In this document: positions 3,881 to 49,664 of the stretch, piece by piece
Position numbering within the stretch: the stretch's first letter is position 1
Layout: each line of letters begins with the position of its first letter
IMG/VR virus record: IMGVR_UViG_3300026116_000040
Span: 1,149-65,148 of that record
DNA: 64,000 nucleotides
Direction: 5' to 3' (one strand)
Source: a virus
Taxonomy: Duplodnaviria; Caudoviricetes
The notes under the pieces: model-generated
Told to the model about the DNA's origin: nothing
Database searches by the model: none
Seen by the model: the letters and a program-made list of their open reading frames with translations, nothing else
Made by a program: the position numbers and the translations under genes

Positions 3881-4749
3881 ACCAAAGAATCTAAAATTTT
3901 ATCCACATCTAATATGTTGTTTGTGTCATACGGGTATTCATTTATTGATCCAGTAATATTGAAAGGAGACAGATAACTATATTTAGTTGTTTTGTATCTT
4001 TCTTCTACATCAGATATAATATTATTATGTATGTCATAACCATATACATTTGGAGAGTTTACAATCCAAGTAACAGTAGATGGTAATTCTAATGCTGCTG
4101 CCGCATGTTGACAAAAAGAGTCTATCAATAATCTTTTCCTTGAGAACGTAAGCAAACAAAAGATGTGTCTAATAGGTAATGTGATAGGAGTGGCGCCAAC
4201 TAAAGCTGGTTGATTCTCTCTTTTTATTTGTAAAACAGCATAGTCAAGAGATAGTTTGTCGACTATTTTTTGTGAAACATTAAAAGGAATATCCCTGGCC
4301 CAGCTATACGGTATATCATTATTGTCTCCACCATTTGGTTGAATAATTAATATAGGCTTATTAAATTGGCTAACTAAGGATTTGTTTACGTAATCCAACT
4401 CCCTAGGAGTGAGATATAGTTCCGGTTTTTCACCAGAATAAGGTATGTCGAACAGATTGCACCATGTTTGAATAAGGTGATGTTTATTGTATATGTGTTC
4501 AGTGCAGTGGTAGGGGTTGTGCATCATAACTATGGTATCCCTTCCTTTTACAATATCTTCGTAAAAGTAAGGAGAGTTTCCAAATGTGTAAACACGGAAG
4601 ATGTTTGGATTATTAAACCACACATCTTCCCATGCTGTGACAATTACGATACCTCTTAAGGGATACTTTTTTTTAATAGCTGACACAACCGCTGTGGCAG
4701 CTATATTTTTACCTATACCACCCTCAATGTGAAAAACTATGAAATCCAT
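3877..4749 (-). CDS. GT-B glycosyltransferase (GT9-like)
   Basis: GGIGKNIAAT start and IDSFCQHAAAALELPS, matching the GT9 DSgpmHlAaA motif. Confidence 0.75.
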   Translation of the reverse strand: MDFIVFHIEGGIGKNIAATAVVSAIKKKYPLRGIVIVTAWEDVWFNNPNIFRVYTFGNSPYFYEDIVKGRDTIVMMHNPYHCTEHIYNKHHLIQTWCNLFDIPYSGEKPELYLTPRELDYVNKSLVSQFNKPILIIQPNGGDNNDIPYSWARDIPFNVSQKIVDKLSLDYAVLQIKRENQPALVGATPITLPIRHIFCLLTFSRKRLLIDSFCQHAAAALELPSTVTWIVNSPNVYGYDIHNNIISDVEERYKTTKYSYLSPFNITGSINEYPYDTNNILDVDKILDSLV

Positions 4750-44281: not shown

Positions 44282-44983
44282 ATGGAAACAGTAAATTCAT
44301 CAACAGGTTACGTTGGGGCCTATTCCTCAAGTAATGATGCCTTAACAGGCGTAGCAGCGTATGGTATTTGTGATCTTCGCAGAGATATTGCTAAAGCAGA
44401 ATCTGATCTTAGAGAAACAATACACAACCAAAGTCTTGTGCAAGGCACAGAATTTTGTGCAGTAAACAAAAGCATCCACGAAGCGGAATGTAATGTTATT
44501 AAAAATGATAATGACATTGCTCACCGAAACACTATTCACCTAAATTCTGTGGAGCGTGACTTGCAAAATCGCATTCTTGAAAATCGTCAAGTGTTAACAT
44601 CTATCATCGGAGACAAAACTGACAGAGTTCTTGACCGTATTGATCGTGAAGCTATTGACCTAAAAAATCAGTTGCGTGCGTTTGAAATGTCTAATGCAGA
44701 AAAATTCTGTGAACTTAAAACTGAAGGATTTAAAAACACTCAAAAGATCCTTGATGAATTAGCTAAAAATAAATATGATGCTATTAAAGATGAGTTGGAT
44801 GAAACTCGTTTATCTAAGTATCATGATAAAAGCGGCTATCAATTTGCTTTGCAAAACCAAGAGATTGCTTCCTTGAAACAAATGATCAACTCAGTAGAGC
44901 AAAATCAAAAATTCAGCTCAAAGACTGTACAATTTGGAACCGGAAATTTAGCCGGTACAGCACAAACTGCTAATCAAGGTTAA
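44282..44983 (+). CDS. Coiled-coil protein
   Basis: Long heptad-like helix; TACATTTG promoter upstream and A-rich translation start. Confidence 0.75.
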   Translation: METVNSSTGYVGAYSSSNDALTGVAAYGICDLRRDIAKAESDLRETIHNQSLVQGTEFCAVNKSIHEAECNVIKNDNDIAHRNTIHLNSVERDLQNRILENRQVLTSIIGDKTDRVLDRIDREAIDLKNQLRAFEMSNAEKFCELKTEGFKNTQKILDELAKNKYDAIKDELDETRLSKYHDKSGYQFALQNQEIASLKQMINSVEQNQKFSSKTVQFGTGNLAGTAQTANQG

Positions 44984-44993
44984 CTAACTAGCA

Positions 44994-45161
44994 ATGGCAA
45001 AAAGACCTGTTAAACAAGAAATTTACAATGAATACAGAAAAGAAACTTGTGACGAAAAAGGATTTCATAAGCCTAATCATTGTAATGCCGCGATCCTTTC
45101 CAAGTTAGACGAGATACTTGAAAAGTTGGAAAAATGGGAATCGCAAAACAAAAAGAAATAA
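44994..45161 (+). CDS. Small protein (55 aa, not in ORF track)
   Basis: MAKRPVKQEIY...ILSKLDEILEKLEKW. Confidence 0.55.
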   Translation: MAKRPVKQEIYNEYRKETCDEKGFHKPNHCNAAILSKLDEILEKLEKWESQNKKK

Positions 45162-45211
45162 TATTTACATATCGTTCGGTTCCGACATGTGCAGTGATAC
45201 GTAAGTATTTT

Positions 45212-45246
45212 AAACCCTGGAGAGCAATCTTCGGGGTTTTTTATTT
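45212..45246 (+). terminator. Intrinsic terminator insulating the tRNA array
   Basis: AAACCCTGGAGA-GCAA-TCTTCGGGGTTTTTT. Confidence 0.85.
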
Positions 45247-45283
45247 TATAAAAAAATAAATTTGTAATTAATAAAATTAGGTG

Positions 45284-45291
45284 TATATTTG
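45284..45291 (+). promoter_or_regulatory. Bacteroidota -7 promoter element, tRNA operon 1
   Basis: TATATTTG 4 nt before the leader ATG. Confidence 0.8.
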
Positions 45292-45295
45292 CATC

Positions 45296-45370
45296 ATGAA
45301 AACAATAACTCTACATCAACAACCGCAGCAACGTCGCCCGAAAAGCGATAAATGGGGTTATTGTGTTTAG
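45296..45370 (+). CDS. Attenuator leader peptide 1 (His/Gln/Pro/Arg)
   Basis: MKTITLHQQPQQRRPKSDKWGYCV, upstream of tRNA-Pro, Gln, His and Arg(ACG). Confidence 0.85.
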   Translation: MKTITLHQQPQQRRPKSDKWGYCV

Positions 45371-45393
45371 GGTATTTAAACATATAAGTAAGG

Positions 45394-45435
45394 AAACTAA
45401 CCCCGACATTGATTTGTTCGGGGTTTTTAGTTTTT
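45394..45435 (+). terminator. Attenuator terminator 1
   Basis: AACCCCGA...TCGGGGTT plus T-tract; GGGGTTA at 45354-45360 is an alternative partner of TAACCCC. Confidence 0.85.
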
Positions 45436-45439
45436 ATAT

Positions 45440-45515
45440 CTTGCGGTATAGGAGTCTGGTTTATCTAACCTCACTTGGAATGAGGAGTACGTGGGTTCAA
45501 ATCCCACTCGCAAGA
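45440..45515 (+). tRNA. trnP: tRNA-Pro(TGG)
   Basis: CCTCA-CTTGGAA-TGAGG anticodon arm, GGTTCAAATCC. Confidence 0.88.
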
Positions 45516-45596
45516 CGAGAGAGGAGACATTGGTTCGAGTCCAATCTGCGGGGCCAAGCCCTGCGGTAGTAACATATAGGAAATACGCCTCTCGTG
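45516..45596 (+). ncRNA. Circularly permuted tRNA-like RNA (YrlA/Y RNA-like architecture)
   Basis: Order: GAGAGG, T-arm ATTGG-TTCGAGT-CCAAT, CTGCGGG-G-CCA, linker, CCTGCGG, D-arm, CCTCTC. Confidence 0.65.
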
Positions 45597-45602
45597 TTTT
45601 AC

Positions 45603-45675
45603 TTTCGGGTCGTCTAGCGGCAGGATTTTGTGCTTTGAACACAAAGACGGTTTGGTTCGAATCCACCCCCGAAAA
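45603..45675 (+). tRNA. trnQ: tRNA-Gln(TTG)
   Basis: TTGTG-CTTTGAA-CACAA; acceptor TTTCGGG/CCCGAAA. Confidence 0.85.
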
Positions 45676-45677
45676 CT

Positions 45678-45747
45678 GTGTTATTAGCATATTGGTAATG
45701 TATTCGCCTGTGAAGCGAGTGAACAGGGTTCGATTCCCGATAACGTG
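45678..45747 (+). tRNA. trnH: tRNA-His(GTG), 3' acceptor strand interrupted by an insertion
   Basis: TTCGC-CTGTGAA-GCGAG; the perfect 3' strand ATAAC|ACC is split, with the remainder at 46219-46221. Confidence 0.75.
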
Positions 45748-46218
45748 GTGCAGCTACCAGAAGGGCGGGATTTTAATCACATAATAAACTTAGAAAGATG
45801 AATAACCAATTAACGCTACAACTGTCAGAAGAGGTACAAAGCCCCGCCTTTTTGGTAGGTGCTGTTACCACCAGTGCTTCTGTCTATGATGAATTCGAGT
45901 GGATAAACAATAATAACTTTGCAAAGGATGCACACAAGCATACTTCATGTGATTGGCAATTATCAAAGAATGAAATTTGGCTTGGCAATACGAGCGGAAA
46001 CAAGCCCTGGGAAAAGGGAGTAGATATTCCAAAAGACTATGATCATTTTAAGACTATTCGATTGGGCCATCAGGCATATTGCATTAAAGGTAAGCCGTTG
46101 AGTAGAGATTACTGTCTGCCTTTGATAATTGACAAATCAGAAGAGCAAGAGTATGATAGAATTTATATGAAGAAAATGTCCGCCTATGCAAGGTAGCGTC
46201 CTTAGCATTGGTGGTAAC
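45745..46218 (-). mobile_element. attC-like gene cassette inserted in tRNA-His
   Basis: GTTACCACCAGTGCT (45864-45878) is inversely repeated at 46204-46218 (14/15); long imperfect palindrome 45741-45866; TAAC at both junctions. Confidence 0.65.
45798..46196 (+). CDS. Cassette-borne hypothetical protein
   Basis: 132-aa ORF starting inside the palindrome loop. Confidence 0.6.
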   Translation: MNNQLTLQLSEEVQSPAFLVGAVTTSASVYDEFEWINNNNFAKDAHKHTSCDWQLSKNEIWLGNTSGNKPWEKGVDIPKDYDHFKTIRLGHQAYCIKGKPLSRDYCLPLIIDKSEEQEYDRIYMKKMSAYAR

Positions 46219-46226
46219 ACCCTTAT

Positions 46227-46298
46227 GTTTCATTAGGCTAAGGGACAAACCATTTGGCTACGAACCAAATATTACACGTTCGAATCGTGTATGAAACA
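46227..46298 (+). tRNA. trnR: tRNA-Arg(ACG)
   Basis: TTTGG-CTACGAA-CCAAA; acceptor GTTTCAT/ATGAAAC. Confidence 0.88.
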
Positions 46299-46309
46299 CT
46301 TAATATTTG

Positions 46310-46382
46310 TGCGAAAGAGTGGTACCGAGCCACTATCTTCGGATTTTCAGTCCGCTGCATAGACCATCTTTGCTACTTCCGC
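46310..46382 (-). tRNA. trnF: tRNA-Phe(GAA)
   Basis: CGGA-CTGAAAA-TCCG; atypical T-loop CTCGGTA. Confidence 0.8.
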
Positions 46383-46387
46383 TTTTG

Positions 46388-46458
46388 CGTTCTCGAATGG
46401 AATCGAACCATTATTAGCTGATTAACAGTCAGTCGTACTACCGTTGTACTACAAGAAC
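46388..46458 (-). tRNA. trnN: tRNA-Asn(GTT)
   Basis: CTGA-CTGTTAA-TCAG; GGTTCGATTCC. Confidence 0.88.
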
Positions 46459-46907
46459 TTTTTTATATACTCTTTATAGTACCCTAATTGGATAACAGTT
46501 TTAATTGCATGGCAATTAGCGCATAAAATTTCACATTTTCTTATTTCTGTTTTTACTGATTCAATAGAATTTCTATCTGCAATTAATGCTGCTACACTTG
46601 ATATTTTACCACTATTATCCTTGTGGTCGAATTGTAAAACAAATGGATTTTTATTTCCGCACTCTTTACAGCCACATAGTCTTTTATATCTTAAAGAAAG
46701 TTCTATTAAATATAGTCTATGATTTTTATCACATTCCTTTTTCTTGTTAACCCTTTTAAATGCCCTAGCATTACTTTTATCTTTTTGTCCTGTCCCACAA
46801 TGAAAGGCTACAGTTCCTTTGGAACATTTTAATTTCCCCGAAATTTTGTTATAAGAAAGTCCCCCCTTTCTTAATTTCAATATTTTTGCTCCAAGTCCTT
46901 TATTCAT
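46449..46907 (-). CDS. HNH endonuclease with N-terminal HTH
   Basis: CKECG...LQFDH...KCEILCANCH; own TATATTTG promoter at 46912-46919. Confidence 0.85.
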   Translation of the reverse strand: MNKGLGAKILKLRKGGLSYNKISGKLKCSKGTVAFHCGTGQKDKSNARAFKRVNKKKECDKNHRLYLIELSLRYKRLCGCKECGNKNPFVLQFDHKDNSGKISSVAALIADRNSIESVKTEIRKCEILCANCHAIKTVIQLGYYKEYIKKFL

Positions 46908-46972
46908 ACTGCAAATATATAAATAAAGGTTCAAATAAAAAAATGTTTTTTAAATCAATTGAACTATATTTG

Positions 46973-47046
46973 CGGGGTTAACGGAAATCGAATCCGTAAT
47001 CTCTTCCGTGACAGGGAAGCGTCATGCGCCAATATGCTGTAACCCC
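46973..47046 (-). tRNA. trnD: tRNA-Asp(GTC)
   Basis: CTTCC-CTGTCAC-GGAAG; acceptor GGGGTTA/TAACCCC. Confidence 0.85.
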
Positions 47047-47048
47047 GT

Positions 47049-47086
47049 AAAACAAAAAACCCTCAAGCTTTTAGCTCAAGGGTTTT
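47049..47086 (-). terminator. Attenuator terminator 2
   Basis: Minus strand AAACCCTTGAGC-TAAAA-GCTTGAGGGTTTTTT; CAAGG/GCTCA just after the leader stop can pair with the 5' arm. Confidence 0.85.
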
Positions 47087-47110
47087 GACAATATCATTCC
47101 ATGAGCCTTG

Positions 47111-47155
47111 TTAGGTTCTATTATCAAAATCGAAATTAAAATTTATTGTTTTCAT
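47111..47155 (-). CDS. Attenuator leader peptide 2 (Asn/Phe/Asp)
   Basis: MKTINFNFDFDNRT; TATATTTG-CACC-ATG leaderless start; upstream of tRNA-Asp, Asn and Phe. Confidence 0.85.
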   Translation of the reverse strand: MKTINFNFDFDNRT

Positions 47156-47179
47156 GGTGCAAATATAACTATTTTTTTG

Positions 47180-47251
47180 TCTCTGTGAAAAGAATCGAAC
47201 TTTTATTTATTGTTTAGAAGACAACTGTACTATCCATTGTACGACACAGAG
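47180..47251 (-). tRNA. trnR: tRNA-Arg(TCT)
   Basis: GTTGT-CTTCTAA-ACAAT; acceptor CTCTGTG/CACAGAG. Confidence 0.85.
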
Positions 47252-47259
47252 TTTATTTG

Positions 47260-47330
47260 TGTCCCTGAACAGAATCGAACTGTTGTCTTCCGGTTAAAAG
47301 CCGGAAGCTCTACCATTGAGCTACAAGGAC
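47260..47330 (-). tRNA. trnK: tRNA-Lys(TTT)
   Basis: TCCGG-CTTTTAA-CCGGA. Confidence 0.9.
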
Positions 47331-47400
47331 AAAACTTTATCTTCTCTTTCTCTTATGAGAAAAAGCAGGTTTTCGTTTTATTTTCCTTGTAGCATTCATG

Positions 47401-47471
47401 TTTCGCAAGATGGAATCGAACCACCGTAAACTGGATGTAAACCAATCACTCTACCATTGAGATATTGCGAA
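47401..47471 (-). tRNA. trnV: tRNA-Val(TAC)
   Basis: ATTGG-TTTACAT-CCAGT. Confidence 0.85.
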
Positions 47472-47477
47472 ATAAAG

Positions 47478-47547
47478 TGGACAGCGTGGGAATCGAACCC
47501 ATACAATCTGATTGCAAATCAGTTGGACTGCCGTTGTCATCGCGCCC
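47478..47547 (-). tRNA. trnA: tRNA-Ala(TGC)
   Basis: CTGA-TTTGCAA-TCAG; G3:U70; irregular acceptor/D region. Confidence 0.75.
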
Positions 47548-47553
47548 ATAATG

Positions 47554-47626
47554 TGTACCCTAAAGGGGTCGAACCTTTATCCCCTTTCTTATGAGGAAAG
47601 TGCTTTACCAATTAAGCTAAAGGAAC
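47554..47626 (-). tRNA. tRNA(CAT), probably Ile2 (lysidine), otherwise Met
   Basis: CTTTC-CTCATAA-GAAAG; third CAT tRNA of the window. Confidence 0.8.
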
Positions 47627-47630
47627 ATAG

Positions 47631-47701
47631 AGTACACAGAAAGAATCGAACTTTCTACTTTTGTTTTGCAGACAAATCTCAATCCATTTGAGTTTATGTA
47701 C
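47631..47701 (-). tRNA. trnC: tRNA-Cys(GCA)
   Basis: TTTGT-CTGCAAA-ACAAA; U73. Confidence 0.85.
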
Positions 47702-47706
47702 TTGTG

Positions 47707-47780
47707 AGCAGATAGCGAGAATCGAACTCGCTCTATTCCAGTTTGGAAGACTGGCGCACCACCAACTATGCGTTATCTGC
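47707..47780 (-). tRNA. trnG: tRNA-Gly(TCC)
   Basis: CCAGT-CTTCCAA-ACTGG; U73. Confidence 0.87.
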
Positions 47781-47789
47781 TTATTATCG

Positions 47790-47862
47790 TATTCGGTACG
47801 GGCATCGAACCCGTATCTGCAAAGTGAAAGTTTGCTATCCTGACCATTTAGAAGAACCGAAC
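47790..47862 (-). tRNA. trnE: tRNA-Glu(TTC)
   Basis: GCAAA-CTTTCAC-TTTGC. Confidence 0.87.
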
Positions 47863-47911
47863 ATTTCGTCGGTCTCCTCACTTAATCTGTTTTTCATTTT
47901 CATTTTTTAAG

Positions 47912-47983
47912 TTGGAATAAAAGGACTTGAACCTTTAGCCTTCGACGTATCAGGTCGCTGCTCCACCATTGAGCTATACTCCA
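47912..47983 (-). tRNA. trnI: tRNA-Ile(GAT)
   Basis: CGAC-CTGATAC-GTCG. Confidence 0.87.
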
Positions 47984-47989
47984 ATATTG

Positions 47990-48060
47990 TTGCGGAGAAG
48001 AGAATCGAACTCTTATCTGAGGCTTATGAGGCCCCCGTGCTACCGTTACACCACCACGCA
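47990..48060 (-). tRNA. trnM: tRNA-Met(CAT)
   Basis: GGGGC-CTCATAA-GCCTC. Confidence 0.82.
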
Positions 48061-48066
48061 ATTTTG

Positions 48067-48138
48067 AGCTTAGATTCGGAACTGACCCGAAAATTGATGC
48101 TTACAAGGCAACTGTTTTTCCCGTTAAACTATCCAAGC
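48067..48138 (-). tRNA. trnT: tRNA-Thr(TGT)
   Basis: TGC-CTTGTAA-GCA; atypical T-loop GTCAGTT. Confidence 0.78.
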
Positions 48139-48143
48139 TTAAG

Positions 48144-48215
48144 CACACCCTCTTTGAATCGAACAAAGTCCTTCGGTTTTGGAGACCGATTGGCTACCAT
48201 TAGCCCAAGATGCGT
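48144..48215 (-). tRNA. trnW: tRNA-Trp(CCA)
   Basis: TCGGT-CTCCAAA-ACCGA; G73. Confidence 0.83.
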
Positions 48216-48217
48216 AT

Positions 48218-48250
48218 AAAATAAAAAACCCCGATTTTTGGTCGAGGCTT
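48218..48250 (-). terminator. Attenuator terminator 4
   Basis: Minus strand GCCTCGA-CCAAAAA-TCGGGGT-TTTTT; CGGGGT at the leader end duplicates the 3' arm. Confidence 0.82.
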
Positions 48251-48276
48251 ACAATTTATATTTTTATAAATTTACT

Positions 48277-48369
48277 TCACCCCGTTATTTTAAATTTCTC
48301 AAACATGGCAATCCCAACACACCATTTTGTTGCGTTTGTTCTCGTGCCTATATTTGTAATTAGTTTCAT
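48277..48369 (-). CDS. Attenuator leader peptide 4 (Trp/Thr/Met/Ile/Glu/Gly/Cys/Ala/Val/Lys/Arg)
   Basis: MKLITNIGTRTNATKWCVGIAMFEKFKITG; contains all 11 amino acids of the downstream 12-tRNA operon. Confidence 0.8.
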   Translation of the reverse strand: MKLITNIGTRTNATKWCVGIAMFEKFKITG

Positions 48370-48398
48370 TGAAAATAGTATTGTTTTAAATATTTCGA

Positions 48399-48447
48399 CA
48401 AATATATGAATAATTGTTTTATATATCCAAATTTATTTTTACATTTG
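48399..48447. promoter_or_regulatory. Back-to-back Bacteroidota promoters for tRNA operons 3 and 4
   Basis: CAAATATA at 48399-48406 (minus) and TACATTTG at 48440-48447 (plus). Confidence 0.8.
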
Positions 48448-48451
48448 TACC

Positions 48452-48520
48452 ATGAAAACACAAAAATCATATAGCCTGTCTTTAAGTTATTCGTTGAGTA
48501 AACAAGAGGCATTCTATTGA
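48452..48520 (+). CDS. Attenuator leader peptide 3 (Ser/Tyr/Leu)
   Basis: MKTQKSYSLSLSYSLSKQEAFY, upstream of tRNA-Leu, Tyr, Ser, Ser and Leu. Confidence 0.87.
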   Translation: MKTQKSYSLSLSYSLSKQEAFY

Positions 48521-48538
48521 TTATACTGAAATAGATAC

Positions 48539-48579
48539 AAAAAAGCCTCTCGAATTTAATTGGGAGGCTTTTTTTATTT
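48539..48579 (+). terminator. Attenuator terminator 3
   Basis: AAAAGCCTCTCGA...TTGGGAGGCTTTTTTT; AGAGGC at 48505-48510 is an alternative partner of GCCTCT. Confidence 0.87.
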
Positions 48580-48653
48580 GCAGCAATGGTGAAACTGGTA
48601 AACACACAGGACTTAAAATCCTGACGCTTTGGGTTCGATTCCCAATTGCTGCA
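48580..48653 (+). tRNA. trnL: tRNA-Leu(TAA), short variable loop
   Basis: CAGGA-CTTAAAA-TCCTG; 5-nt variable region. Confidence 0.88.
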
Positions 48654-48659
48654 CTAAAT

Positions 48660-48733
48660 GGGTTGTTCATTGCTAACAGGTAAGCATTCGGTCTGTAACA
48701 CCGCTAATAGAGGTTCGATTCCTTTACACCCCA
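48660..48733 (+). tRNA. trnY: tRNA-Tyr(GTA), short variable loop
   Basis: CGGT-CTGTAAC-ACCG; ~4-nt variable region. Confidence 0.82.
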
Positions 48734-48738
48734 CATAC

Positions 48739-48824
48739 GGAAGATTAAACAGAAAGGCTCTGTAACCGCCTGCTAAGCGAGTTGTCCTGTAAAAAGGGAT
48801 GGATTTCGAATATTCAGTCTTCCG
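48739..48824 (+). tRNA. trnS: tRNA-Ser(GCT)
   Basis: CGC-CTGCTAA-GCG; long variable arm; G73. Confidence 0.8.
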
Positions 48825-48827
48825 TTT

Positions 48828-48921
48828 GGAAAGTAAAGCAGCTACATTGGAGTGGCGACTAGTCTTGAAAACTAGGTATCGGCGTAAAAAACTGATTGGA
48901 GGTCGGGTCTTCTGCTTTCCG
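48828..48921 (+). tRNA. trnS: tRNA-Ser(TGA)
   Basis: CTAGT-CTTGAAA-ACTAG; long variable arm; G73; atypical T-loop. Confidence 0.8.
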
Positions 48922-48926
48922 CAAAT

Positions 48927-49000
48927 GCCCAATTGGCGAAATTGGTAAACGCGCTACTCTTAGAAAGTAGATTTTACAGGTTCGACTCCTGTATTGGGCA
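48927..49000 (+). tRNA. trnL: tRNA-Leu(TAG), short variable loop
   Basis: CTACT-CTTAGAA-AGTAG; 5-nt variable region. Confidence 0.88.
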
Positions 49001-49664
49001 CAATTATAGCGTTCTTGTCCAACCCTTTAAATTTGTCATTTATCGTCTTCCTTTGGACATCAACATACTCTACACCCCATTGGTATGTCTTGTTTATTTT
49101 GCTCAGTCTTTTTTCATACATCTTATGCCGGCTGTAAACATAGTCGGGAGAAATGTACTTATAATGTAGTAATGGAACGGTGAATGGACTGTAAATAATA
49201 TTACCAATAGGATTTGCGGTATGGCAACCTGGCAAATAATTTATTTCTTGGATTTGATTGGGTCTAAAAAAACAAAGTTTGCTATACATTGAGTTAGGAA
49301 CGCCCAAACGCGAAGGTGGCGGACCAATCATATCGTAGCCTTTCGTTTTTACGATGGATGTATTTTTTAAGTCGGCGTTTACCGGCAACTCTAAAAATTC
49401 ATCAATGTCAACTACGCACACCCAGTCCGCTTTGCTTTTCTTCCAACAGCTGTTTTTTATTTTAAGATACAAATCATCCCGTATTTCATCTTGTGAATTA
49501 TAATCGATCAGCGTGCATCCAGCAGCATTTATTATTTCACGGGAATTGTCGATAGACCGGTTATCGAAAATGGTGATGTTGGCCCCCATAGATTGATAAT
49601 GCTTTATGAAGTGGGGCAGTAAGAACGCTTCATTGTAACAGATACTAAATACGTCGATGTTCAT
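48960..49664 (-). CDS. GT2-like glycosyltransferase
   Basis: YNEAFLLPHFIKHY, FDNRSID, DWVCVVDIDEFL; 3' end overlaps tRNA-Leu antisense. Confidence 0.85.
   Translation of the reverse strand: MNIDVFSICYNEAFLLPHFIKHYQSMGANITIFDNRSIDNSREIINAAGCTLIDYNSQDEIRDDLYLKIKNSCWKKSKADWVCVVDIDEFLELPVNADLKNTSIVKTKGYDMIGPPPSRLGVPNSMYSKLCFFRPNQIQEINYLPGCHTANPIGNIIYSPFTVPLLHYKYISPDYVYSRHKMYEKRLSKINKTYQWGVEYVDVQRKTINDKFKGLDKNAIIVPNTGVEPVKSTF

What the first reader, a model, noticed from the sequence alone, without database searches (positions are those of the whole stretch)
48440..49000. Attenuator 3: SYSLSLSYSLS leader uses synonymous codons covering every downstream isoacceptor
Seen: 11 consecutive codons TCA TAT AGC CTG TCT TTA AGT TAT TCG TTG AGT. 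They cover TCN (Ser-TGA), AGY (Ser-GCT), TTR (Leu-TAA), CTN (Leu-TAG) and Tyr. AGAGGC complements GCCTCT of the terminator. Inference: spreading over synonymous codons suggests sensing of individual tRNA species rather than amino acids.
Basis: partly seen in the sequence, partly recalled or inferred. Interest (0 to 1): 0.85.

Follow-up and report, generated by a model that had tools for sequence, protein, structure and literature searches.

The report
Leader-peptide attenuator gating phage tRNA genes
A tiny 22-codon gene written in serine, tyrosine and leucine codons sits with a switchable stop signal just in front of a phage's five Ser/Tyr/Leu tRNA genes, so the phage probably makes these tRNAs only when ribosomes read those codons slowly.

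Summary
In detail: 48467-48499 holds eleven consecutive Ser/Tyr/Leu codons inside a 22-codon, apparently leaderless ORF (48452-48520) lying between a Bacteroidota-type promoter and an intrinsic terminator, 4 nt before five packed tRNA genes (Leu-UAA, Tyr-GUA, Ser-GCU, Ser-UGA, Leu-UAG). Such a run has a chance of about 1e-7. Folding gives a trp-like three-way switch: the codons pair with AGAGGC, AGAGGC pairs with the terminator's GCCUCU, and in a nascent-transcript model a ribosome at codons 6-14 frees the antiterminator while one further on masks it. Three sister units in the window and relatives in other phages (L258, L529) repeat the design. Best reading: a leader-peptide attenuator that turns phage tRNA genes on when their codons are read slowly. 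But where isoacceptors are split between units, leader codons follow them (Arg here, Leu in L529; in-run 10 of 13 against 5.3 expected), so isoacceptor-level sensing is moderately supported. Earlier follow-ups of this scan reported the same design on other DNA; eight literature searches found no published account.

The parts
48440..48447 (+). -7 promoter element TACATTTG (Bacteroidota TAnnTTTG type); its G lies 5 nt before the A of the ATG, which puts the predicted transcription start on the start codon
   Evidence: Pattern TANNTTTGNNNNATGAAA: 4 matches in the window against 0.07 expected, three of them before tRNA leaders. In Flavobacterium johnsoniae the element spans T-12 to G-5, with 4-5 nt to the start site (passages of PMC6847099). 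The start site here is inferred, not measured.
48452..48520 (+). Leader ORF, 22 codons, MKTQKSYSLSLSYSLSKQEAFY, stop TGA 48518-48520
48467..48499 (+). Regulatory run: 11 consecutive codons read by the five tRNAs downstream (Ser-UGA: TCA, TCT, TCG; Ser-GCU: AGC, AGT, AGT; Tyr: TAT, TAT; Leu-UAG: CTG; Leu-UAA: TTA, TTG)
   Evidence: decoding assumes U34 reads all four codons of a family box
48477..48483 (+). Region 1: TGTCTTT inside the run, pairs with region 2 in the ribosome-free fold
   Evidence: MFE fold, -37.1 kcal/mol, z -5.2; same pairing (GTCTCTC with GGAGAGC) in relative L258
48505..48511 (+). Region 2: AGAGGC(A), 5' arm of the antiterminator, 7-14 nt before the stop codon
   Evidence: duplex -10.9 kcal/mol, better than all but 0.65% of 2000 shuffles; P 0.02 with another definition of the segment
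48545..48575 (+). Intrinsic terminator: stem GCCTCTCGA / TTGGGAGGC (48545-48553, 48560-48568), loop 48554-48559, seven T 48569-48575; the 5' arm is region 3, the 3' arm region 4; A-run 48539-48544 makes it two-way
   Evidence: the consensus scan did not list it (it lists those of units B and D)
48580..48654 (+). tRNA-Leu (anticodon TAA), 75 nt, 5-nt variable loop
   Evidence: (69.1 bits)
48660..48734 (+). tRNA-Tyr (GTA), 75 nt, short variable loop, one acceptor mismatch
   Evidence: Rfam partial 29.7 bits
48739..48824 (+). tRNA-Ser (GCT), long variable arm
48833..48922 (+). tRNA-Ser (TGA), long variable arm
   Evidence: sub-threshold tRNA-Sec hit
48927..49001 (+). tRNA-Leu (TAG), 75 nt, 5-nt variable loop
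   Evidence: (68.9 bits)
45296..45370 (+). Sister unit A leader MKTITLHQQPQQRRPKSDKWGYCV before Pro-TGG, Gln-TTG, His-GTG, Arg-ACG
   Evidence: run of 9, P about 2e-8
47111..47155 (-). Sister unit B leader MKTINFNFDFDNRT before Asp-GTC, Asn-GTT, Phe-GAA
   Evidence: (run of 8, P about 3e-6)
48277..48369 (-). Sister unit D leader MKLITNIGTRTNATKWCVGIAMFEKFKITG, divergent from unit C, before 12 tRNAs (Trp to Arg-TCT)
   Evidence: (24 of 29 codons matched, P 0.0017)

Best explanation
Unit C (48440-49001) is a ribosome-mediated (leader-peptide) transcription attenuator that gates a five-gene phage tRNA operon. Transcription starts at or next to the AUG; a ribosome translates the 22-codon leader while RNA polymerase moves on. 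If charged tRNAs for the run are plentiful, the ribosome reaches the end of the ORF, covers AGAGGC (region 2), the terminator hairpin forms and transcription stops 4 nt before tRNA-Leu. If any of the codons 6-14 is read slowly, the stalled ribosome holds region 1 and leaves region 2 free to pair with GCCUCU, the terminator cannot form, and polymerase runs into the tRNA genes; RNase P would then cut off the leader. The products, once charged by host synthetases, end the stall, which makes a negative feedback loop. Because a codon is read by particular tRNAs, the sensor works at the level of codon families and so of isoacceptors. Shown: the sequence features, their statistics, the alternative pairings, recurrence and covariation in other phages. 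Inferred: that the leader is translated, that stalling causes read-through, and the use to the phage (topping up tRNAs that run short, for example after tRNA cleavage by host defences or host tRNA decay).
For: Run of 11 cognate codons, P about 1e-7; 12 of 21 leader codons match unit C's own tRNAs against 2, 1 and 6 of 21 for the sets of units A, B and D. All four tRNA units of the window have the same anatomy and all 24 tRNAs have a cognate codon in their own leader. Ribosome-free fold: 1:2 hairpin plus terminator, z -5.2. Antiterminator AGAGGC:GCCUCU, -10.5 to -10.9 kcal/mol, P 0.0065 or 0.02; in 9 of 11 phage units the segment near the stop codon complements the terminator's 5' arm at P 0.02 or less. 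Nascent-transcript model: probability that the terminator's 5' arm is paired upstream is 0.21 without ribosome, 0.84-0.87 with the A site at codons 6-14, 0.02-0.13 at codons 15-21; codons 6-14 sample all five tRNAs. Relative L258 (metagenome): MKTQNLYCLSFSLSYS... before Leu-TAG, Leu-TAA, Cys, Ser-TGA, Ser-GCT, Tyr, with Cys codon and Cys tRNA gained together and antiterminator CAGGAG:CTCCTG changed on both sides. L529: MKKFSFCLSYWLSFY... before Tyr, Leu-TAA, Ser-TGA, Ser-GCT, Trp, Phe, Cys: 12 of 12 run codons, 7 of 7 tRNAs. A sample chosen without regard to leaders (76 loci holding the Ser-GCT anticodon arm) has 81 tRNAs with a terminator just upstream, 68 with a short ORF, many matched to the tRNAs. 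The same promoter-plus-MKT chassis heads Trp leaders (MKTITNNTWWWNNLRQ) before trpE in Flavobacterium genomes. Codon level.
Against: No expression data. Equilibrium folds of the whole leader keep the terminator whatever the ribosome position, so the switch rests on the usual kinetic assumption. In the model the last two run codons (TTG, AGT) do not give antitermination, and at the stop codon itself the value is 0.5 through a weak -2.7 kcal/mol pairing. Nine of 21 leader codons (K, T, Q, K, K, Q, E, A, F) are not cognate to the unit's tRNAs. Leaderless mRNAs are a minority in flavobacteria (5.5%, passage of PMC9723704). Three of the five tRNAs fall below ARAGORN's default threshold. The synonymous spread is not beyond chance. 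Relatives show imperfect matching: L013-type leader has Ser and His codons without such tRNAs; L644-1703 has 3 of 5 in-run Leu codons TTR with only Leu-TAG; L572-6450 has 4 of 6 TTA with Leu-TAG; L631 uses only AGT in the early part though both Ser tRNAs follow. Unit A's switch was inconclusive by the automated measure.
Confidence: 0.75

Rival explanations
1. The attenuator is real but senses amino-acid supply (Ser, Tyr, Leu starvation), as classical leaders do, not the supply of particular tRNA species; codon choice within each amino acid is free.
For: For unit C alone the codon spread is what chance gives (65%). Leader Leu codons are mostly CTN even in units without any Leu tRNA (5 of 6), so the Leu box does not discriminate in that set. 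A stalled ribosome cannot tell an uncharged from a missing tRNA.
Against: The regulated genes are tRNAs, which do not relieve amino-acid starvation. Arg codon family follows the Arg isoacceptor (6 of 6 CGN in units with Arg-ACG, 0 of 6 elsewhere, P 0.017; in-run Arg CGC or CGT in 8 of 8 distinct Ser/Arg-type leaders). Leu split in L529. In-run 10 of 13 against 5.3 expected, out-of-run 3 of 7 against 2.8. In family boxes served by a U34 tRNA, 32 of 45 leader codons end in A or G against 23.5 expected (P 0.008).
Confidence: 0.1
2. The leader is translated and coupled to the terminator, but it reports general translation capacity (whether ribosomes load and run at all) rather than specific codons; the Ser/Tyr/Leu content is a by-product of the RNA pairings it must encode.
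For: Region 1 (TGTCTTT) lies inside the run, so part of the codon choice is fixed by structure. Without a ribosome the model of unit C terminates (0.21), which is a translation-dependence of its own.
Against: Structure fixes about 7 of 33 bases. The amino-acid content changes with the tRNA set in each of four units here and in relatives, which general capacity sensing does not predict.
Confidence: 0.07
3. No switch: an ordinary promoter, a chance or peptide-coding small ORF, and a leaky or two-way terminator that merely sets tRNA level or stops antisense transcription from the convergent gene 48960-49664.
For: The hairpin has an A-run before and a T-run after it, so it could terminate both ways. 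No RNA data. Rfam leader models match only below threshold (Phe_leader 28 bits against 55).
Against: P about 1e-7 for the run, four units with own-set matching, antiterminator complementarity at the stop codon in 9 of 11 units, covariation in L258 and L529.
Confidence: 0.05
4. Direct tRNA binding to the leader RNA without a ribosome (T-box-like), the codons serving as specifiers.
For: The sensed molecules would be tRNAs, as in T-boxes.
Against: No T-box hit at E up to 1 among 33 Rfam matches in 44800-49400. The codons are in frame within an ORF that begins 5 nt after the promoter element's G and whose stop sits by the antiterminator in all four units; eleven specifiers in a row have no precedent.
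Confidence: 0.03

Closest known systems
Leader-peptide transcription attenuators of amino-acid biosynthetic operons (trpL, hisL, leuL, pheL; the multivalent thrL and ilvL), named from established knowledge
   Same: Short translated leader with a run of regulatory codons; regions 1 to 4 with 1:2, 2:3 and 3:4 pairings; intrinsic terminator; a ribosome at the stop masks region 2; several amino acids sensed by one leader, as in thr and ilv.
   Different: The genes behind the terminator are tRNA genes, so the product is the sensed molecule itself; the leader is a list of the codons of up to 12 different tRNAs; the element is in a phage; the mRNA is apparently leaderless.
Trp operon leader of Flavobacterium and relatives, MKTITNNTWWWNNLRQ before trpE (found here; leader-peptide attenuation before amino-acid operons is mentioned for F. 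psychrophilum in a passage of PMC9723704)
   Same: Same chassis: TAnnTTTG element, 4 nt, ATG AAA ACA (MKT, often MKTI as in units A and B), short ORF, terminator. 9 of the 71 pattern sites in bacterial genomes are such Trp-rich leaders, nearly all hits are Bacteroidota.
   Different: Regulates trpE, senses one amino acid; 0 of the 25 short ORFs at those 71 sites is followed by a tRNA gene within 1.5 kb.
pheST (pheM leader) attenuator of E. coli, from established knowledge
   Same: Leader-peptide attenuation applied to a gene of the translation apparatus and responding to charged tRNA.
   Different: Regulates a synthetase, one amino acid, bacterial chromosome.
T-box riboswitches
   Same: Read-through control that responds to the state of a specific tRNA.
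   Different: Ribosome-free binding of one tRNA to one specifier codon; conserved T-box sequence, absent here.
L-array (trn operon) of Anabaena sp. PCC 7120, PMC8421152
   Same: A horizontally spread tRNA gene array that is silent until translation is impaired.
   Different: Controlled at the promoter by direct repeats, a putative repressor site; the words attenuat-, leader and terminator do not occur in the main text (passages read).

Membership tests
Leader-peptide (ribosome-mediated) transcription attenuator | Short ORF with a start codon in the 5' part of the transcript, ahead of the regulated genes | tested here: met
   22-codon ORF 48452-48520, ATG 5 nt after the G of TACATTTG
Leader-peptide (ribosome-mediated) transcription attenuator | Run of regulatory codons cognate to what the operon supplies | tested here: met
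   11 consecutive codons read by the 5 downstream tRNAs, P about 1e-7
Leader-peptide (ribosome-mediated) transcription attenuator | Intrinsic terminator between leader ORF and regulated genes | tested here: met
   9-bp GC-rich stem, 6-nt loop, seven U, ending 4 nt before tRNA-Leu
Leader-peptide (ribosome-mediated) transcription attenuator | Antiterminator pairing exclusive with the terminator, its 5' arm placed so that a ribosome at the end of the ORF masks it and one stalled in the run does not | tested here: met
   AGAGGC 7-14 nt before the stop pairs with GCCUCU; model values 0.84-0.87 against 0.02-0.13. In silico only, with an assumed footprint of -15 to +12 around the A site.
Leader-peptide (ribosome-mediated) transcription attenuator | Leader is translated and stalling raises read-through | not testable with these tools
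   No RNA holder among 9 runs listed
Leader-peptide (ribosome-mediated) transcription attenuator | Regulated genes encode amino-acid biosynthesis enzymes or a synthetase (all described members, as far as I know) | tested here: not met
   Five tRNA genes follow; this is the point of novelty, hence a new variant rather than a plain member
Rfam leader families (Phe_leader RF01859, Trp_leader RF00513) | Score at or above the family's gathering threshold | tested here: not met
   Phe_leader 28 bits against 55 at 48459-48577; Trp_leader 21.4 against 41 at 48221-48307 (-)
T-box riboswitch | Specifier loop and conserved T-box sequence | tested here: not met
   No T-box match at E up to 1 in 44800-49400

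The most novel reading that the evidence does not exclude
Phage tRNA arrays are wired as codon-resolved homeostats: each block of tRNA genes carries a leader that lists the codons of exactly its own isoacceptors and switches the block on only when one of them is decoded slowly, for instance after host anticodon nucleases or phage-induced decay remove host tRNAs. The device was built on the host phylum's own amino-acid attenuator chassis (Flavobacterium trpL) and is widespread among large phages, which would make tRNA genes the first case of leader-peptide attenuation in which the sensed molecule is the operon's direct product.
Probability: 0.4. Interest if true: 0.9.

Novelty: new variant of a known kind. 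Interest (0 to 1): 0.8.

Why it matters
Why phages carry tRNA genes, and when they use them, is an open question (codon-usage matching, replacement of degraded host tRNAs, escape from tRNA-cutting defences). A built-in sensor that lists the codons of the tRNAs behind it would say that the phage expresses each tRNA group on demand, and would give a direct handle for experiments: the leader can be recoded, single isoacceptors can be depleted, and read-through measured. It would also extend a textbook mechanism, known for amino-acid and synthetase genes, to RNA genes whose product is the sensed molecule, and would offer a natural, compact reporter of the decoding speed of chosen codons. The leaders also annotate tRNA genes: they predicted three class-II tRNAs that the default tRNA search missed here.

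Tried and rejected
Close relatives of the phage: blastn of 45200-49050 against 50,697 phage records gave only tRNA-sized matches (82 records, none covering 80%). Neighbouring proteins gave 3 distant loci without tRNAs and none. The record is a 65-kb virus contig, estimated 32% complete.

Expression: no RNA holder listed among 9 runs. Laying contigs of 4 DNA runs gave short low-depth pieces, nothing informative over 48452-48579.

Pattern scans that led nowhere: TTTGNNNCATGAAAACACAAAA, 1 unrelated locus without tRNA; the 14-mer from leader A's tail, 118 mostly chance loci, of which only L370 was useful.

Equilibrium folds with a blocked ribosome footprint always kept the terminator: no test of a kinetic switch; replaced by the nascent-transcript model. 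That measure was inconclusive for unit A (0.43-0.67 throughout), and units B, D and L258 show no 1:2 state (read-through without ribosome).

The Leu box test on the first 11 units did not discriminate. The both-boxes-covered count (7 of 7) has a chance of 0.064. The 5-mer family linkage merged the Ser/Arg-type leaders with another family, so its tally leaves them out; I read them. The L409 row failed (wrong hairpin picked). One search used wrong coordinates for L173. The block Leu-TAA, Ser-TGA, Arg-TCT, Met of L573 has no leader, so no reciprocal test.

Dropped rows: two relaxed ARAGORN calls that overlap stronger tRNAs on the other strand (Arg-TCG 46242-46310, His-GTG 48943-49034); L205 (44-aa ORF before one tRNA). 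Some anticodons are my own reading of the anticodon loop where ARAGORN's relaxed call looked wrong (L008 Leu-TAG and Cys; L144 Ser-TGA; L258 Cys, Ser-GCT, Tyr).

Literature: eight searches found no account of leader-peptide attenuation of tRNA genes. Supplements were not seen; subscription journals are not covered.
Full report
What is there. The window is part of a 65-kb virus contig with no close relative among 50,697 phage records. Between 45284 and 49001 lies a cluster of 24 tRNA genes covering all 20 amino acids: 19 found by ARAGORN at default, five more at relaxed thresholds (Tyr, two Ser, Ala, Cys). Two further relaxed calls overlap stronger tRNAs on the other strand and were dropped. 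The cluster falls into four transcription units. Each has a TAnnTTTG promoter element, a short ORF starting MK(T/L), an intrinsic terminator and then tRNA genes. The finding is unit C.

The observation. The ORF 48452-48520 reads MKTQKSYSLSLSYSLSKQEAFY. The five tRNAs are Leu-TAA, Tyr-GTA, Ser-GCT, Ser-TGA and Leu-TAG, with spacers of 4-8 nt. Three are below ARAGORN's default threshold; alignments with copies from other phages fold as cloverleaves with compensatory changes in 18 of 27 pairs (Ser-GCT) and 8 of 14 (Tyr). With the window's own codon usage, a run of 11 Leu/Ser/Tyr codons in a 21-codon ORF has P about 1e-7. The runs of units A (HQQPQQRRP before Pro, Gln, His, Arg-ACG) and B (NFNFDFDN before Asp, Asn, Phe) have P about 2e-8 and 3e-6; leader D matches 24 of 29 codons to its 12 tRNAs (P 0.0017). 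Each leader fits its own tRNA set best, except A, whose 9 of 23 compares with 10 of 23 for D's large set.

The switch. The ribosome-free leader folds into two hairpins (-37.1 kcal/mol, z -5.2): TGTCTTT inside the run pairs with AGAGGCA, and the terminator forms. AGAGGC can instead pair with GCCUCU (-10.5 kcal/mol), better than all but 0.65% of shuffles (2% with another definition). I folded the transcript as it exists before the terminator's 3' arm is made, and blocked a footprint of -15 to +12 around the A site. The terminator's 5' arm is then held by the antiterminator with probability 0.21 without ribosome, 0.84-0.87 with the A site at codons 6-14, and 0.02-0.13 at codons 15-21. That is the three-state logic of the trp attenuator. 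Codons 6-14 include at least one codon for each of the five tRNAs. Equilibrium folds of the full leader always keep the terminator, so the switch is kinetic, as in known attenuators. In units B and D and in relative L258 the antiterminator is also lost when the ribosome nears the stop (0.79 to 0.18, 0.85-0.96 to 0.05, 0.90-0.95 to 0.40), but they lack the 1:2 state; unit A was inconclusive. In 9 of 11 phage units the segment near the stop codon complements the terminator's 5' arm at P 0.02 or less.

Start of the mRNA. In units A, B and C the ATG follows TAnnTTTG after exactly 4 nt (4 such sites in the window against 0.07 expected). In Flavobacterium johnsoniae the element ends with G at -5 (passages of PMC6847099), which puts +1 on the A of the ATG. 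The same pattern in bacterial genomes hits almost only Bacteroidota (71 sites). Nine of those sites head Trp-rich leaders such as MKTITNNTWWWNNLRQ, and in L409 this leader and a terminator precede trpE (Pfam Anth_synt_I_N, E 2.4e-31). None of the 25 short ORFs at those sites precedes a tRNA. So the phage units use the chassis of the host phylum's amino-acid attenuators, which supports both translation of such leaders and a Bacteroidota host.

Relatives. L258 (metagenome) is a homologue of unit C: MKTQNLYCLSFSLSYS... before Leu-TAG, Leu-TAA, Cys, Ser-TGA, Ser-GCT, an HNH ORF and Tyr. A Cys codon and a Cys tRNA appear together, the 1:2 pairing is kept, and the antiterminator is CAGGAG:CTCCTG instead of AGAGGC:GCCTCT. 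L529 has MKKFSFCLSYWLSFY... before Tyr, Leu-TAA, Ser-TGA, Ser-GCT, Trp, Phe and Cys: 12 of 12 run codons and 7 of 7 tRNAs match. Homologues of unit A (L173, L370, L231, L499, L514, L529) vary their leaders with their tRNA sets, for example Glu and Leu codons with Glu and Leu-TAG tRNAs. A sample chosen without regard to leaders, 76 loci holding the Ser-GCT anticodon arm, has 81 tRNAs with a terminator just upstream, 68 of them with a short ORF. It includes families such as ..SSSSSRSS.. before Arg-ACG and three Ser tRNAs, and MKQHSIYNLQMNIWFAPVKED before about 20 tRNAs.

Amino acid or tRNA species? Given the peptide, random synonymous codons cover all four boxes in 65% of draws and give 9 or more distinct codons in 24%. 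The question can be tested where the two isoacceptor families of Arg, Leu or Ser are split. In the window, CGT and CGC precede Arg-ACG, and AGA precedes Arg-TCT. Over the first units, all 6 CGN codons lie in units with Arg-ACG, and none of 6 Arg codons elsewhere is CGN (P 0.017). In 8 of 8 distinct Ser/Arg-type leaders the in-run Arg is CGC or CGT, with only CGN-reading Arg tRNAs behind. L529 uses CTA and CTT before Leu-TAG, and TTA and TTA before Leu-TAA. L639, with only Ser-GCT, has AGT in its run, whereas its relative with both Ser tRNAs has TCT, TCG, AGT and TCA. The MKQHS family, with only Ser-GCT, Leu-TAG and Arg-ACG, has AGT, CTT and CGY in the run. An objective pipeline (30 units, 10 families) gives 10 of 13 in-run codons in the right box against 5.3 expected (P 0.0085), and 3 of 7 out-of-run codons against 2.8. 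In family boxes served by U34 tRNAs, 32 of 45 leader codons end in A or G against 23.5 expected (P 0.008). Against this: L644-1703, L572-6450, L631 and L013 are counter-examples; Leu codons are CTN-rich even without a Leu tRNA; many leaders are homologous; and background usage was taken from the window for all phages. I rate isoacceptor-level design as moderately supported.

Known or new. The mechanism is classical leader-peptide attenuation; the regulated genes are not. Eight full-text searches found no description of such control of tRNA genes. The nearest case, the Anabaena tRNA array induced by translational stress, is controlled by promoter repeats (passages of PMC8421152). Notes of this scan show that earlier follow-ups reached the same reading on other phage genomes; I formed mine before reading them (note) and tested it independently. 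Verdict: real feature, a new variant of a known kind, high interest; the isoacceptor claim is partly supported.

Noticed in passing
48580-48654, 48927-49001, 48660-48734; also L258:5297-5450, L008:1793-1867 and 1547-1616, L013:4225-4294: The Leu (TAA, TAG) and Tyr tRNAs are 70-76 nt with a 5-nt variable loop, a class-I shape, whereas bacterial Leu and Tyr tRNAs have long variable arms; both Ser tRNAs keep the long arm. Both Leu and the Tyr have discriminator A. A listed abstract says that the Septu defence cuts the variable loop of tRNA-Tyr (PMC13096335, listing), so a short loop might evade such nucleases; this is speculation.
   Followed up: partly
L409:850-1030 (-) and L404, L436, L440, L441, L449, L450, L457, L460: Flavobacterium and related genomes carry a leaderless-looking Trp leader (MKTITNNTWWWNNLRQ) plus terminator before trpE, on the same promoter and MKT chassis as the phage tRNA leaders.
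   Followed up: yes
46449-46934 (-); L258:5770-6290: HNH endonuclease ORFs (PHROG HNH families, best E 1e-19) sit inside tRNA units, between Asp and Asn in unit B and between Ser-GCT and Tyr in L258; a 132-aa ORF without family lies between His and Arg-ACG in unit A.
   Followed up: partly
45516-45602: An 87-nt element between tRNA-Pro and tRNA-Gln is not called as a tRNA. It holds a T-arm-like stretch and the hairpin CTGCGGGG-CCAA-GCCCTGCGG; a similar hairpin follows tRNA-Pro in L370 and L231.
   Followed up: partly
47156-47178: Unit D ends at Arg-TCT (47179) without a terminator of its own and runs straight into unit B's promoter and leader, so B's attenuator terminator (47086-47056) would also end D's transcripts, and read-through from D would feed B.
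   Followed up: no
48960-49664 (-): A 234-aa ORF with a weak glycosyltransferase match (PHROG 13126, E 1.5e-5) converges on unit C and overlaps the 3' end of tRNA-Leu(TAG) by 42 nt.
   Followed up: no
L013:4377-4465 and 4616-4712: Two AT-rich gaps of 89 and 97 nt lie inside a tRNA unit whose leader has Ser (TCA, AGC) and His codons but no Ser or His tRNA. The gaps have the size of Ser tRNAs but no anticodon stem-loop: possibly decayed tRNA genes, with a leader that has not yet followed.
   Followed up: partly
48328-48377: One contig of a second rhizosphere run differs from the window at 9 places in the 5' part of leader D and its promoter region: a strain variant of the neighbouring attenuator.
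   Followed up: no
L586, L641, L624, L645, L572, L579 and others: A widespread unit in large phages: leader ..SSSSSRSS.. with Ser codons alternating TCG, TCA, AGT and Arg as CGC, before Arg-ACG plus Ser-TGA, Ser-GCT and often Ser-GGA.
   Followed up: partly
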